64,000 bases of DNA. It comes from Mytilus trossulus. Its lineage: Eukaryota. Of this stretch, positions 16,752 through 41,732 are shown piece after piece. Below the pieces are notes generated by a model. That model had not been told where the DNA came from. It ran no database searches and saw only the letters and a program-made list of their open reading frames with translations. The translations under genes were made by a program, and so were the position numbers. The DNA lies in NCBI RefSeq assembly GCF_036588685.1, contig NC_086385.1, positions 6,634,001-6,698,000 of the forward strand, read 5' to 3'. Positions within the stretch are counted from its first letter, which is position 1. Each line of letters starts with the position of its first letter.

Positions 16752-16811
16752 ATAACTTAAAGGAAGAAATGAGAAAACAAGTAGAAGATCATATTCCAAA
16801 CCATATACGAG
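16752..16811 (+). CDS. Gene 1 60-nt phase-1/phase-1 linker exon
   Basis: TTTCAG|...CGAG|GTATGC; reads NLKEEMRKQVEDHIPNHIR. Paralogous to 41673-41732. Confidence 0.9.
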
Positions 16812-16879
16812 GTATGCATAGTTCATGTTTACCTAGTCTCAATTGTCGATATTATGCTGATCATCGGCTTTCAAATTAA

Positions 16880-17215
16880 AAACCTGGAACCTATTTACAC
16901 CACTGGGTCAATACTTCTGTTGGTGGATGCTTCGTACCTAAGGACATTGTTAGCCCAGTATCAGCACTTCGGTGGCGACATTAATATCAATAAAACGTTC
17001 ATTTTTATTAATTAAATGTTTGCAAACGTGTGAATTATTCGAAATACTAAGAATATTCTTATCCCAGGTAAAGATTTGGCACAACTTTTTGGAATTTTGG
17101 GTCCTCAATGGTTTTCAACTTTATACTTTATTGGTTATCGAACTTTTTTTAACTAAGCGTTACTGATGCGTCGTTTAAAGATAAAACGTACGTCTGGCGT
17201 TATTACAAAATTTCA
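16880..17215 (+). mobile_element. Retrozyme-like element family 1, degenerate hammerhead (17157-17200)
   Basis: GCGTTA-CTGATGC-GTC..GAT-AAAA-CGTACG-TC-TGGCGT. The core is mutated, but stem III is still palindromic (ACGTACGT). Confidence 0.75.
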
Positions 17216-17454
17216 CCCTTTAAGTTTATTTGCCGTGAAAGCCAGAAACAAAGATTCTATATTCGTTGTCAGCATATTTAAGATTGGGTCTGATGTAAAA
17301 GTTTCTTTTGACATCAATTACCTTCAAAATTAAGTCAACTACTTATGGTGTATGGAATACTATATGCAGTTTTCATCTGACCTTGACCTCATGTACATGG
17401 ATCATCTATGATAAAAATGTATGTACATATATACGTACAGAAATGTAATTATCG

Positions 17455-18590
17455 AGGTTTTATGCAATCCTCTGGGTACCAATTGTGCCCCTTAAATATC
17501 AGACTTGATCTTGTAATTATGCGTTACAGTTTCACTTTTGCTGATATGCTTTGTGGACTGTGATGGGGTTTTTTGTACCATCTTACAGTGTTTATGCATT
17601 ACACATCATTCGTTATGCCTGCGTCTGTAGTGACGTTTGTCATTCATATTAACGTAATCTATGTAAGTCTGGTAAATTATTGAGTCAGGGGTTTCGTTTC
17701 CGTTAATTTCTTAAAATATTTACTAAATTCTTCCTTAGATTCAATTAAAGATTTGATTGGAAAATTTGGCTGAACTTGTAGAAAGATAATTTCAAATGGG
17801 ATAGCACACCATAAAAGGTATAACAACAAAATAACGAACTCCAAGGAAAAATTAAAATCAAAGGTCATGAAAATCAAAAACTCAAACTCATCAAACAAAC
17901 GGATTACAAATGTTTAGAGAGATGTTAATTTCTTAGTCCGGATATGAAGATGATGTTTACATGTGTTAAACAATCTGTTGATACTCGTGTCTTGTACAAG
18001 GACAAGTACGTTCTCTGACTTTAACGACGTCTGTATACTGAATCCATTGGATGCGCACTGGTTGATTTTTCAGTCTTATATAAATATTTCATTGGTAGTT
18101 GTGATTGACTATGAACCCGTTGTAGGAAATTTTGAGAACTCTCATATGGGTTCTGAGTGCCATTTAGGAATTGCGGTTATCCTAGTTTCTATGATGAGTT
18201 TATTTTAGTTCCTGTGGGGATGTAAATTCCTTTCAACGTCTGACATGTCTTGTGTTGGTTTTTGTTAGTAATTTTTTCTGCTTTATACTAATTCGAAAAA
18301 AATAAACCCTTTTTAACTGATTTTATTCTTATCTTGTACTGTTCCACCACTGTCCCAGGATAGACGGAACTTGGCGCCAGTAAACAAATTAAACTCCGCT
18401 ACATCCTGTATGCGTTTATCCAAAGTCTGGAGCCTGTTATTCACTGGTTCTAGTTTGTATTTCATATTTTGTGTTCGAGCATTGTTTGGGCAGAAATCAG
18501 CCACTTAGGTTTTCTGTTTTATTTGTTTTATATTTTTCATTCCGGTGCCTTTTATAGCTCTATGTGCGGTATTGGTTTTATGCATTTGCT
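17455..18590 (+). mobile_element. Old degenerate Penelope-like element (RT remnants plus family B tail)
   Basis: PLGTNCAP remnant near 17470; IFTKFF..KDLIGKFG*TCRKIISNGIAH near 17715-17810, which matches the 63212-63514 peptide; followed by a family B-like tail. Confidence 0.55.
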
Positions 18591-19045
18591 AAAGGAGCGG
18601 CGATAGATACCAGAAGCACATTAAAACTTGTAGATCGAAAATAAACTGACAACACAATCGGTATAAAAGAAAAAGACAATCAGACAAATAATAGTACACA
18701 AGACACAACTTGGAAAACTAAAGACTCGGCAATATGAACCCCACCACAATCTGGGTGTGATTTCATGTGCTTCGATAGGATAAGCAGATCCTGCTCCATA
18801 TGTGGCACCCGTCTTGTTATATCAAAACCGGTAAGTAGTTTTATTTGGTAGGTCACATTCGTGAAAAAGGAAAGGGAGTAATTGTAACGCCATAAGTAAC
18901 ATATTCGAGATCCTCTGTGAAACGGATATTCCACAACGGTCAACCAACTCGTGATGGCGTCCATAAAATTTAGAGAGGTATGATTTCAACTTTTTTTTCG
19001 TCATTTTGAACTCTTGGTTTAATAGCTTCCTTGTGAACAGCAACC
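18591..19045 (-). mobile_element. Penelope-like 3' fragment (thumb plus tail family A)
   Basis: Minus-strand ORF LFTRKLLNQEF..LKSYLSKFYGRHHELVDRCGISVSQ followed by tail A. Confidence 0.85.
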
Positions 19046-38957: not shown

Positions 38958-39682
38958 GGTAGCACAATACAAAGATTTATTTACTTCCAATCCCCAACCT
39001 TTAAAACGCTGTAACTTTCTTAAAATTGCATATAAATTAATAAAAGAGGTATATGTAGATAGATAAAAGAATAATCTTTTAAATGAATGCAATATTTTTG
39101 TTATGCAATCATTATGTAATCAATTATTATACAATTAGTTGCAAAATCGTGGTCAGTTCACTATAATGAATTTAGCTCTTTATTCTTTATAGCTACACAA
39201 GAAATTTGAACGTTATCTTAATTAGCACAGCAGGAGCTTCAAAAGGGTGTCTCAAATTATCGCTATCGTATTCCATTCTCTCATAAATTTGTAATTAGTG
39301 TAAACATCCTTACCACAAAAGAGTAGATAATGTATGATTAGGTGTAACATTTGATCTATACATTCTATCCAAAATCTGAGACAACCTTTTGTAGATAATG
39401 ACTCAAGGAACAACATATAATAAAATCAACCCTCTAGGAGGATCCATGAAGAAGCTAATTTCAATTGAATGTGGAAATTTGTTGTAAAATTTTGTAGACA
39501 CAGTTATCATTATAATTGATTACATAATTGTTGTATAATACTAACATTGCATTAATTTGAAAGAGTAGTCTGTGTTAGCTATCCATGGATACCTTTATTA
39601 TAAATTTTCAAGCATTATAACGAAAGTTACAGCATTTTAAAACTGGGGAATTGGAGGGTTAAAATCTTTGCATTGTGCTACC
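38958..39682. mobile_element. Complete Kolobok-like MITE with TTAA TSD
   Basis: TTAA|GGTAGCACAATACAAAGATTT ... AAATCTTTGCATTGTGCTACC|TTAA; imperfect TIRs extend ~180 bp. Confidence 0.85.
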
Positions 39683-40684
39683 TTAAATGAAACATTTTCC
39701 AATAAAAAAAAAAGTGACATACAATTCAACCATGCCTACAACAAAGACCAATTTCCTTGTCAAATTTTAAAGTGTTGTGGTCATTTTAAAACAAGAAACG
39801 ACAATCTCGGTATTCATAAATATTCAAAGGAGAAACAAAACAAAGTTTTAAAGAGATTAATAAACAGAAAAGGATTGCAACAGTGCCATCCTTTTAATCA
39901 AACTATACACAAGTTCTTTTGCAGCGACATTTAAACTCTATAATGGTCAAGATCCGATGATTTACCTTTACCGTGTAAAAGTGCCAAGAAAGAAATAAAC
40001 GACATGAATACGAATGTTATGAGAAAAATGGGGTGGGCTCTATAGCCACTATATACTTTGTAAGAGGTTAGTAACCTCATGTTCATTTCAAACACTACAT
40101 CTTGACGACTCATACATTAAAATTCTAAATTTAACTTACTTACTTACTCAATTACAATTTACATAGTGGTTTCACGATGACGAACGGCAAAACAGTCCTT
40201 CTTAAACAAAATGTTTTTCTTGATAAAAAAAAAACACACTCAACCGAAGCCCCTTCTATCGAACCTGCATGTTTCATTGCAAATATCAATCTTCTCAGAA
40301 CTGATAAAGTCTTTGATAATGTTTTTATAACAATATTTTCAAATAGTGCACTGACATTAGTATGGATTATATGTTTAAATAAATCTTTCTAGAAACAATA
40401 TCTGCTTTGAGGTAAAATTTATCTATGTCTTTTTTGGAACATGCATTCATTGCAGTATATTCAGTATACACGCGGTAAATCAAATAATTTCGAAATTAAT
40501 CCATGGAGTAAGAATAAAACCCAGAAAAAAGTCCTTATTTTTTTATGGTTATAGAAACAAAAATAGAAAAAAATATATATACAAGTAAGCTCATAAGCCT
40601 GCCAAAATATGATATTAAGGAATACTTTGAATTTAATGGCCCAATTCAGTCATTTGTCAGTTTCACATTATCTTTATTTTTCAG

Positions 40685-41024
40685 GCCATTAAAGGTCTTG
40701 ATAATTCACAAGCTTCTATTGTAAGTTTAAAGGATACTGAAACAAAGATGCTGGATAATTCAATGGCACAAATATTGTCTCTCAAAGGCAACTCGAAAGG
40801 AAGGTTTCGAATCTTCAAGATGAGTTGGAGCAAATTTCAATATATATTGACAATGATGTTCAAGAAAAGAAGGAACTTAAACAGCCAACATCAAATCTAG
40901 AAGAAATAATAAAAATAAAGGGAGACAATCTAGAGAGGCTTATTGGCAAAAGTAAAAAAAAAAATAGATAAATTTTATGAACGACTGAATAGTAGTGAAG
41001 TTATTAGCCTTGAAACTAAATCAG
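40685..41024 (+). pseudogene. Gene 2 exon 3 (coiled coil; two frameshifts)
   Basis: TTTCAG|AIKGLDNSQASIVSLKDTETKMLD../QRQLERKVSNLQDELEQI../IDKFYERLNSSEVISLETKS G|GTATCT. Confidence 0.8.
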
Positions 41025-41672
41025 GTATCTCTTTTATATTAATGGTAATTGTTAAAGCATCTAGATAATGCATGTCCGTGCCTGTAGATGTAAATTCACG
41101 AGACACGTCAAAACACTAAATTTGACCAAATATCTGATATGATGCATAAGCCCGGGGAGTTACAAGCTCGTTTGTGCCTCAATATCTAAATACACTACTT
41201 AAATGTATAGATTTAATTGTTGATCATTGCTTTCACCGGCTTCACCTACTTATTTGTTAACTATCGAAATGAAAACATATTAAAGGTCATTTAAAAAGTG
41301 TTTTCATGCACTGCTTGCAACCAATATTGTTCGAATTCTCCTGTACCATGTTATTGAATATTTTGTAACAAACTAATATAGTTTCATGAACTATAATATG
41401 AATAAATCACCAGCTTCTTTTAACAAGGCCAGACAAACAAAGTATTGAAACTGAATTATTATATGTATGGTTAAAGAGGGGCGAAAGATACAAGAGGGAC
41501 ATTGCTCTTCACATTCGTACTATATTTGACATTTTTGCTTCTTTTTCAAGTGCCACTAATGAGTCTTTTGAAGACGAAAAGCCTGTTCTAATTGACGAGT
41601 TTGATTTGCATACAAAACTACATATAAACTTGATGGAGGTGTATAACGAATAAGTACTTGTTTGAATTTCAG

Positions 41673-41732
41673 ACTTATTGCAGAATGAATTGAAAAAACA
41701 AGAAAAAGATCATATTCCAAACTATATTAGAG
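41673..41732 (+). CDS. Gene 2 60-nt phase-1/phase-1 linker exon
   Basis: TTTCAG|DLLQNELKKQEKDHIPNYIR G|GTATGA; same length and phases as 16752-16811. Confidence 0.88.

What the first reader, a model, noticed from the sequence alone, without database searches (positions are those of the whole stretch)
16752..41732. Effector swapping: two different HEPN modules plug into the same 60-nt phase-1 adaptor exon
Seen: similarity between the paralogues starts at an identically sized 60-nt exon (EDHIPNHIR versus KDHIPNYIR) flanked by phase-1 introns and continues through the last exon. Upstream, the exons differ in number, size and sequence: the KRWLIVGICLH/RNPWAHCDF type in gene 1 versus the EENFLR/QWDILYP/DLDLT DZIP3 type in gene 2. 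Inference: recombination in the phase-1 intron exchanged the effector cassette, as in the modular N-terminal shuffling known for fungal and cnidarian NLRs. Repeats shared among these introns could provide the homology.
Basis: partly seen in the sequence, partly recalled or inferred. Interest (0 to 1): 0.75.

Follow-up and report, generated by a model that had tools for sequence, protein, structure and literature searches.

The report
Mix-and-match mussel immune receptor genes
Two decayed neighbouring mussel genes share the same rear half but carry different front ends, each a likely RNA-cutting domain, and related gene models show front and rear halves being reshuffled again and again on either side of one short exon, which likely generates new immune-receptor combinations.

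Summary
Both exons are 60 nt (16752-16811, 41673-41732), AG/GT-bounded, phase 1-1 and 45/60 identical. Similarity runs on through an nSTAND3-ankyrin last exon. Upstream, gene 1 has a Swt1/CXorf38-like HEPN and gene 2 a DZIP3 HEPN; their profiles do not align significantly (E=0.13). Both genes are broken.

Swapping is supported. On the NTPase tree of Mytilus gene models, effector type switches at least 11 times on well-supported branches. Monophyly is rejected overall (p=5e-59) and within one assembly (p=6e-6). One same-assembly pair is about 20% identical upstream, 95% in the short exon and 97% downstream, with the step at the split codon.

The exon is a two-sided hinge, not a socket. Gene 1's cassette plus this exon also sits on a GIMAP GTPase in two mussel species and on an NTPase lineage only 33% identical.

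Repeat-mediated recombination is unsupported: the introns share one 83-nt, 73%-identical fragment of a common repeat.

Limits: relatives were seen only as predicted proteins, some models are chimeric, and no RNA junction evidence was obtained. N-terminal shuffling in NLR-like families is known; the exon-level hinge and HEPN-GIMAP fusion were not found in nine literature searches.

The parts
8269..8717 (+). Gene 1 exon (449 nt, phase 1-0): N-terminal part of the type-A (Swt1/CXorf38-like) HEPN domain
   Evidence: matches model P0001; 268 relatives at E<=0.001
9452..9620 (+). Gene 1 exon (169 nt, phase 0-1): HEPN half with the intact RNPWAH (Rx4H) motif
   Evidence: weak HEPN_Swt1 hit E=0.05, below cut-off
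11941..12128 (+). Gene 1 exon (188 nt, phase 1-0): helical linker, likely coiled coil
   Evidence: long helix in the model of relative P0205
13797..13824 (+). Gene 1 exon (28 nt, phase 0-1): end of the type-A cassette
14869..14949 (+). Fragment of a common interspersed repeat in gene 1's upstream intron; 73% like 41503-41582
16752..16811 (+). Gene 1 hinge exon, 60 nt, phase 1-1
19079..23908 (+). Gene 1 last exon: nSTAND3 NTPase (Walker A and B intact), helical region, about 30 ankyrin repeats by a rough motif count; stops at 19828, 21010 and 22754, frame change near 21430-21456
   Evidence: (nSTAND3 E=1.3e-18; Ank_2 E=2.9e-45)
35734..35967 (+). Gene 2 first coding exon (ATG at 35745, ends in phase 1): start of the type-B DZIP3 HEPN
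37887..38127 (+). Gene 2 exon (241 nt): DZIP3 HEPN core with a Kx5H motif in place of Rx4H; frameshift near 37920
   Evidence: HEPN_DZIP3 E=1.1e-10, 41.9 bits vs cut-off 27
40685..41024 (+). Gene 2 exon (340 nt, ends in phase 1): helical linker, frameshifted; end of the type-B cassette
41503..41582 (+). Degenerate fragment of the same common repeat in gene 2's upstream intron
41673..41732 (+). Gene 2 hinge exon, 60 nt, phase 1-1
42531..44736 (+). Gene 2 last exon: nSTAND3 with a 12-residue deletion and a 2-residue deletion in Walker A, three frameshifts, a stop at 43789, about 9 ankyrin repeats
   Evidence: (nSTAND3 E=4.3e-13)

Best explanation
These are two broken copies of a mussel gene family built as front end, short hinge exon and rear end, and the different front ends were likely brought in by repeated recombination in the phase-1 introns on either side of the hinge. 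SHOWN in the window: an effector cassette (HEPN plus helical linker) ending in phase 1, a symmetric phase 1-1 exon, and one large exon holding nSTAND3 and all ankyrins. SHOWN in predicted proteins of relatives: cassette and core trees disagree; near-identical hinge-plus-core pairs carry either HEPN; the type-A cassette plus hinge also sits on an AIG1/GIMAP GTPase and on a 33%-identical nSTAND3. INFERRED mechanism: in a tandem head-to-tail cluster, a single unequal crossover or deletion, or conversion of the 3' half, joins the 5' half of one gene (gene 2's cassette holds its own ATG, so probably its promoter too) to the 3' half of another. Any break in either kilobase-sized intron stays in frame, so selection on the products, not a site-specific signal, makes the hinge look like an adaptor. 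INFERRED function of intact members: ankyrins sense a ligand, the NTPase oligomerises, and the coiled linker brings HEPN domains together to form an RNase site that cuts viral or host RNA. Swapping would exchange a canonical Rx4H HEPN for a Kx5H one of altered or lost activity.
For: Phases and boundaries. Type A vs type B profile alignment E=0.13, probability 0.5%, only around the RN..H core. Core trees: 16 changes on 89 labelled rows, at least 11 on branches with support >=95; type-A monophyly rejected on 45 rows, p-AU 4.6e-59, with 12 changes against a shuffled mean of 14.3; rejected on 15 rows from one M. trossulus assembly, p-AU 6.4e-6; eight closely related B cassettes rejected as one clade on the core tree, p-AU 1.1e-4. 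Same-assembly pair P0177(A)/P0181(B): 21% upstream, 95% hinge, 97% over the next 200 aa, with non-identical ankyrin tails, so two genomic copies. Split-codon residues before the hinge pair as N/D and Q/E, which can differ at the first base alone. The residue after the hinge is G-initial (A, G, E, D, V) in 90 of 93 proteins vs 28% background. GIMAP fusions: hinge-like peptide in 4 of 4 (shuffle p 0.0005 in three, 0.0035 in one, against gene 1's exon); cassettes nest in the 100%-supported clade holding gene 1's own cassette; one fusion is shared by M. californianus and M. coruscus (94% cassette, 91% AIG1). P0131 has a cassette 72% like P0012's but a core 33% like it.
Against: No relative was seen as DNA, so intron positions and breakpoints outside the window are inferred. 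Gene models in this family can be chimeric at these very introns: RefSeq isoforms X1-X4 of one M. edulis gene mix two tandem copies. Cores are mosaic internally (steps near residues 120-137 in several pairs; patchy identity), so many exchanges fall inside the last exon and a single core tree is only an approximation. Over the whole family effector type keeps clear phylogenetic signal (16 changes vs shuffled minimum 23). Pair counts are not independent. No exon-exon joint appeared among the rows shown in the RNA lay. RNase activity and ligand sensing are untested, and both window genes are broken.
Confidence: 0.72

Rival explanations
1. One or a few ancient shuffling events made A-core and B-core genes; since then gene conversion has copied hinge and last exon between neighbours while the cassettes stayed in place. 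The step at the hinge then only marks where homology begins.
For: Patchy identity inside cores; one chromosome of one assembly carries at least 13 members; domain-restricted conversion is reported for zebrafish NLR-B30.2 genes (10.1101/027151, passages read). This process probably acts alongside the best explanation.
Against: Conversion cannot put a cassette on an unrelated AIG1 GTPase or on a core 31-33% identical. Whole-hinge identity up to the first codon still needs a tract end in the upstream intron.
Confidence: 0.14
2. The mixed architectures are largely artefacts of gene prediction or assembly that join exons of neighbouring tandem genes at compatible phase-1 introns.
For: RefSeq isoforms X1-X4 are such mixtures; P0013(A) and P0048(B) have 100% identical hinge and core; several models lack the hinge or half a domain.
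Against: The window itself shows both architectures directly in DNA. B cassettes with a 191-aa linker recur on different cores in three species. Same-assembly cores differ from each other. The HEPN-GIMAP fusion recurs in two species.
Confidence: 0.06
3. Programmed combinatorial splicing: transcripts read through tandem copies and splice any upstream cassette to any downstream hinge or core, so combinations arise in RNA without DNA change.
For: The four RefSeq isoforms switch copies at both phase-1 introns; all products would be in frame.
Against: Both cassettes in those isoforms are type A; mis-mapped paralogous reads give the same models; no junction reads were obtained here; it does not explain DNA-level differences between loci.
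Confidence: 0.05
4. One reading: non-allelic recombination between copies of an interspersed repeat in the upstream intron drives the swap.
For: One same-strand repeat fragment lies in both upstream introns (14869-14949 and 41503-41582, E=1e-5); 6 of 150 control pairs did as well, so it is uncommon but not rare.
Against: 83 nt at 73% identity; the repeat has 7 matches in 64 kb; the two fragments lie 1.8 kb and 0.09 kb from the acceptor; flanks on neither side align; the two genes are not recent recombination partners (core 62%).
Confidence: 0.03

Closest known systems
Bivalve DZIP3/hRUL138-HEPN + NACHT + repeat proteins of pearl oyster (PMC9646362; passages read)
   Same: N-terminal DZIP3 HEPN, central STAND NTPase, C-terminal repeats; tandem, copy-number-variable clusters; proposed RNase effectors in innate immunity.
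   Different: Here the NTPase is nSTAND3 and the repeats are ankyrins in the same exon; a second HEPN family alternates with DZIP3; this DZIP3 lineage has Kx5H whereas 194 of 202 pearl oyster domains have Rx4-6H; the passages read hold no occurrence of 'shuffling'.
Swt1-like/CXorf38 and DZIP3 HEPN families (Anantharaman et al. 2013, PMC3710099; passages incl. Table 1 read)
   Same: Both families are listed as fused to NACHT, ankyrin, CARD and DEATH in animals, with DZIP3 expansions in oyster.
   Different: Type A lacks a conserved cysteine cluster for the CXorf38 Zn-ribbon insert and falls below Pfam cut-offs in gene 1; exchange of the two families on one NTPase and fusion to AIG1 were not in the passages seen.
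N-terminal domain shuffling in sponge and other invertebrate NLRs (PMC3879445), zebrafish NLR-B30.2 (10.1101/027151) and Podospora NLRs (PMC13449251); passages read
   Same: Effector type does not follow the NTPase tree; exon shuffling and gene conversion are invoked.
   Different: No NACHT and no LRR here. The word 'phase' does not occur in the sponge paper's main text. Here the switch can be placed at a codon, between cores 97% identical, and also swaps the NTPase itself.
Phase-compatible domain shuffling of hard-clam IAP genes (PMC7831173; passages read)
   Same: Bivalve tandem immune family in which conserved intron phases are proposed to allow mixing of modules.
   Different: Different domains (BIR, RING); gain and loss of domains rather than exchange of alternative effectors and NTPases.
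Crassostrea TRADD-N expansions (PMC8195603; passages read)
   Same: Bivalve constant-plus-variable proteins whose variable part draws on STAND NTPases, HEPN RNases, AIG GTPases and ankyrins.
   Different: Those have a membrane-anchored TRADD-N constant region; a direct HEPN-hinge-AIG1 fusion is not described in the passages seen.

Membership tests
NLR in the strict sense | NACHT or NB-ARC nucleotide-binding domain | tested here: not met
   Best Pfam match is nSTAND3 (E=1.3e-18, 4.3e-13); no NACHT or NB-ARC hit at E<=1
NLR in the strict sense | C-terminal leucine-rich repeats | tested here: not met
   Ankyrin repeats only in the stretches scanned
Tripartite STAND (NLR-like) receptor | N-terminal effector, STAND NTPase, C-terminal superstructure repeats in one gene | tested here: met
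   intact in relatives such as P0008, P0017, P0020
Tripartite STAND (NLR-like) receptor | Intact Walker A and B and an open frame to the repeats | tested here: not met
   Gene 1 has both motifs but stops at 19828 before the ankyrins; gene 2 has a Walker A deletion and frameshifts. Met in relatives
Tripartite STAND (NLR-like) receptor | Ligand-triggered oligomerisation that activates the effector | not testable with these tools
   needs biochemistry
HEPN_DZIP3 (PF18738), gene 2 | Profile match above the gathering score | tested here: met
   41.9 bits vs 27 on one exon; 106-110 bits in intact relatives
HEPN_DZIP3 (PF18738), gene 2 | Rx4-6H catalytic motif | tested here: not met
   Kx5H in gene 2 and its lineage; 29 proteins with Kx5H vs 30 with Rx4H among those matching the search pattern
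Swt1-like/CXorf38 (DUF4559) HEPN, gene 1 | Rx4-6H motif in a helical bundle | tested here: met
   RNPWAH in gene 1; Rx4H in 50 of 53 full-length representatives; H invariant and R, N >=90% conserved in 62 aligned rows; mainly helical model, pLDDT 89
Swt1-like/CXorf38 (DUF4559) HEPN, gene 1 | Profile match to HEPN_Swt1 or DUF4559 | tested here: inconclusive
   Gene 1 itself is below cut-off; relatives pass narrowly: P0129 HEPN_Swt1 31.8 vs 27.5, P0151 DUF4559 28.8 vs 27; Atlas neighbours carry DUF4559 or HEPN_DZIP3 on 11-38% of members
Swt1-like/CXorf38 (DUF4559) HEPN, gene 1 | HEPN fold by structure comparison | tested here: inconclusive
   No Foldseek hit at E<=0.001; yeast Swt1 C-terminal domain at rank 20, Z 6.9, rmsd 4.1, 124 of 136 residues aligned, among unrelated helical bundles
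CXorf38 proper | Zn ribbon inserted in the HEPN domain (PMC3710099 Table 1) | tested here: not met
   Only one cysteine is >=90% conserved in the 62-row alignment
HEPN RNases | RNA cleavage on dimerisation | not testable with these tools
   needs an assay
Symmetric class 1-1 exon-shuffling modules (concept recalled, from no call) | Module flanked by phase-1 introns | tested here: met
   Direct in both window genes; indirect in relatives by G-initial split codon, 90 of 93
Symmetric class 1-1 exon-shuffling modules (concept recalled, from no call) | Recombination breakpoints lie inside those introns | tested here: inconclusive
   Protein identity steps at the split codon but no genomic DNA of relatives was available

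The most novel reading that the evidence does not exclude
Mussel immune clusters run a two-sided combinatorial system. Alternative effector cassettes (canonical HEPN RNase, Kx5H pseudo-RNase, CARDs) and alternative nucleotide switches (several nSTAND3-ankyrin lineages, a GIMAP GTPase) are joined at one phase-1 hinge, not only by germline recombination but also by read-through splicing between tandem copies, so that one animal expresses more effector-sensor pairs than it has genes. It includes an undescribed GTP-switched RNase (HEPN-GIMAP).
Probability: 0.12. Interest if true: 0.78.

Novelty: new variant of a known kind. Interest (0 to 1): 0.5.

Why it matters
Effector shuffling in invertebrate NLR-like receptors is usually inferred from deep tree conflict. 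This family gives pairs 97% identical downstream with unrelated front ends, so breakpoints could be mapped to the base and the mechanism (crossover, conversion, repeats, splicing) tested directly. It also shows an RNase-type effector being moved between a STAND ATPase and a GIMAP GTPase, which would give a concrete, testable output for invertebrate GIMAPs, and an exchange of canonical for non-canonical HEPN on the same sensor. The two window genes themselves are decayed copies.

Tried and rejected
RNA lay on 7000-24500 (4 runs, 85% likeness) was swamped by intronic repeats: no exon-exon joint among the rows shown (1009 rows not shown). Exon bins had low depth, mostly on one mate strand in run X21 (e.g. 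0 vs 8.1), from a species label other than the best DNA holder's and a library of unrecorded strandedness; not used as evidence. No RNA holder was listed. RNA junction support therefore stays open. The first structure model (15 rows) had pLDDT 47 and was discarded; the second was confident but fold searches were inconclusive. The hinge HMM did not detect the GIMAP fusions and 4 of its 34 seeds were mis-anchored; pairwise tests were used instead. The search for B cassettes on GIMAP found none among 23 hits of 380-1211 aa, a narrow search. The family's usual first exon for gene 1 was not found in the window; my candidate 7713-7731 has no support and the RefSeq model uses 4119-4199. My first donor for gene 2 exon 3 (40951) was wrong and corrected to 41024; the 21/60 identity printed was an off-by-one error, corrected to 45/60. 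Rank correlations showed the hinge tracking the core more than the effector in type A (0.52 vs 0.15) but not clearly in type B (0.52 vs 0.41); pairs are not independent, so not relied on. Direction and order of swaps were not inferred (no root). Rejected: two diverged copies of one domain; a site-specific recombination signal; repeats as the driver.
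Full report
1. Observation. The two exons are at 16752-16811 and 41673-41732. Each is 60 nt, lies between AG and GT, and is entered and left in phase 1. They share 45 of 60 nt; 20,000 shuffles never exceeded 33. Self-BLAST aligns the genes only at this exon (plus about 14 nt of acceptor) and in the last exon. Gene 1's upstream exons are 449, 169, 188 and 28 nt and gene 2's are 234, 241 and 340 nt. My gene 1 exon chain reproduces the RefSeq model P0001 (Mytilus trossulus LOC134695365, 100% identical) from residue 28 to the stop.

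2. What the genes are. Both last exons encode an nSTAND3 NTPase followed by ankyrin repeats. Gene 2's front end is HEPN_DZIP3 (41.9 bits, cut-off 27). Gene 1's front end has no Pfam match above cut-off, but carries an Rx4H motif conserved in 50 of 53 full-length representatives, and relatives pass HEPN_Swt1 or DUF4559 narrowly. I call it type A, Swt1/CXorf38-like; it lacks the CXorf38 cysteine cluster. A confident model of a relative (pLDDT 89) is mainly helical; the Swt1 HEPN domain appears at Z 6.9 among unrelated bundles, which is inconclusive. Type A and type B profiles align only around the RN..H core (E=0.13), so they are distinct families, not diverged copies. The gene 2 lineage has Kx5H in place of Rx4H. 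Both window genes are broken: gene 1 stops at 19828, before the ankyrins, and again later; gene 2 has frameshifts in three exons and a deletion in Walker A. Whether some lesions are assembly errors was not tested.

3. Tree test. No genome was held, so I used predicted proteins: 120 of 143 core homologues listed, 59 type-A hits, 23 type-B hits, 150 of 268 type-A representatives and cluster members. On 89 cores labelled A (39) or B (50), after dropping five rows (three isoforms, one duplicate, one model without hinge), the label changes 16 times, and at least 11 times using only branches with support of 95 or more; shuffles need 23 or more, so some signal remains. On a hand-picked 45-row set centred on the window's clade, 12 changes are close to random (shuffled mean 14.3; 26 of 200 at or below 12) and type-A monophyly is rejected (p-AU 4.6e-59). 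Using 15 rows from one M. trossulus assembly, it is still rejected (p-AU 6.4e-6). Eight closely related B cassettes do not form a clade on the core tree (p-AU 1.1e-4). The window's two cores are 62% identical and not sisters, so they show the outcome of older events, not a swap with each other.

4. Where the switch lies. In 40 of 45 cross-type pairs with cores at least 85% identical, the identity step is within one residue of the split codon that opens the hinge (pairs are not independent). The same-assembly pair P0177(A)/P0181(B) is 21% identical upstream, 95% in the hinge and 97% over the next 200 residues, with different ankyrin tails. Since hinge alleles of different lineages are only about 40-65% identical, full-length hinge identity implies an exchange boundary upstream of its first codon. 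The residue after the hinge has a G-initial codon in 90 of 93 proteins and takes five different values, against 28% background, as expected for a conserved phase-1 intron. Steps also occur inside the last exon, so conversion or crossover there is common too.

5. The downstream intron is used as well. Four proteins from M. californianus and M. coruscus join the type-A cassette and a hinge-like peptide to an AIG1/GIMAP GTPase. The peptide matches gene 1's hinge in all four (shuffle p 0.0005 to 0.0035), and their cassettes nest in the fully supported clade that holds gene 1's cassette. One fusion is shared by both species at 94% and 91% identity. A type-A cassette 72% like P0012's sits on a core only 33% like P0012's, and that distant core lineage also carries B cassettes. 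Such cores are too distant for exchange by homology in the last exon. Among 31 longer relatives scanned, type A also occurs with NB-ARC-TPR, NACHT-LRR, Roc-COR, RRM and Death domains. The hinge is therefore the symmetric joint between two classes of module.

6. Repeats. The two upstream introns share one same-strand fragment, 83 nt at 73%, of a repeat with 7 matches in the window; 6 of 150 random pairs of like size gave a same-strand hit at E<=0.001. The downstream introns share nothing on the same strand better than E=0.2. This does not support repeat-driven exchange for this pair and says little about recent pairs elsewhere.

7. Mechanism. Most likely, single unequal crossovers or deletions in a tandem cluster, helped by conversion of 3' halves, join one gene's 5' half to another's 3' half; phase-1 introns on both sides of the hinge keep every product in frame (inferred, 0.72). 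Intact members would work like NLR-type receptors: ankyrin sensing, NTPase oligomerisation, HEPN dimerisation and RNA cleavage (inferred from family knowledge; PMC3710099 and PMC9646362 propose RNase roles, passages read). The main caveat is that gene models can be chimeric at these introns: four RefSeq isoforms of one M. edulis gene mix two tandem copies at both junctions. That may be read mis-mapping or real read-through splicing. RNA junction evidence was not obtained (one search was dominated by repeats), so this stays open.

8. Relation to known systems. These are not NLRs in the strict sense (no NACHT, no LRR) but are built like them. Effector shuffling is reported in sponge and other invertebrate NLRs (PMC3879445), zebrafish (10.1101/027151) and fungi (PMC13449251); HEPN-NACHT expansions in pearl oyster (PMC9646362); phase-compatible shuffling in clam IAPs (PMC7831173); and STAND, HEPN and AIG modules in oyster TRADD-N proteins (PMC8195603). 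I read matched passages of these papers, not whole texts or supplements; supplements of PMC3710099 and PMC8195603 list architectures and could hold HEPN-AIG1 or HEPN-nSTAND3 cases. Nine searches listed no title or abstract opening on this mussel family, its hinge exon or a HEPN-GIMAP fusion; 'nSTAND3' with 'HEPN' returned none, and the library lacks most subscription papers. An earlier scan note from the same genome (e1-9376574) reports an intact plus a degenerate HEPN in a related gene; I did not check it.

9. Verdict. A real feature, and a new variant of a known kind. Interest 0.5.

Noticed in passing
P0008, P0015, P0173, P0174 (XP_071149400-403, M. edulis): Four RefSeq isoforms of one gene are combinations of two tandem copies that switch at the introns before and after the hinge; read-through splicing or mis-mapping.
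   Followed up: partly
P0125, P0127, P0128, P0130: Type-A HEPN plus hinge fused to an AIG1/GIMAP GTPase in M. californianus and M. coruscus.
   Followed up: yes
window 37887-38127; P0004, P0017, P0020, P0185-P0194: A whole DZIP3 lineage has Kx5H in place of Rx4H and is conserved, perhaps a pseudo-RNase or decoy.
   Followed up: partly
P0177 (M. trossulus), P0013 and P0048 (M. edulis), P0065 (M. galloprovincialis): Cores are 98-100% identical across species over about 420 residues, which suggests introgression or long-shared haplotypes.
   Followed up: no
P0072, P0186-P0188, P0194: Further architectures on related cores: two CARDs before nSTAND3-ankyrin; DZIP3-CARD, one with nSTAND3 behind.
   Followed up: no
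P0240, P0250, P0300, P0219, P0235: The type-A domain also occurs with CAP-Gly/Roc-COR, PARP14-like RRM, Death, TPR/MYND/beta-helix and NACHT-LRR; it has no Pfam model of its own.
   Followed up: partly
window 1-8268: The first coding exon typical of type-A genes is not found upstream of gene 1; the RefSeq model uses 4119-4199 instead.
   Followed up: partly
window 25134-25481 and 53913-55418: Decayed LINE-like fragments: reverse transcriptase (E=1.3e-9) between the two genes; endonuclease (E=4.3e-11) and reverse transcriptase (E=7.9e-5) downstream.
   Followed up: partly
window 1359-1937 / 6068-6668; 3334-3495: A 600-nt inverted repeat pair at 79% and a 160-nt imperfect palindrome upstream of gene 1.
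   Followed up: no
window 20380-23850: Gene 1 has about 30 highly similar ankyrin repeats against about 9 in gene 2 by a rough count; tail lengths vary widely in relatives.
   Followed up: no
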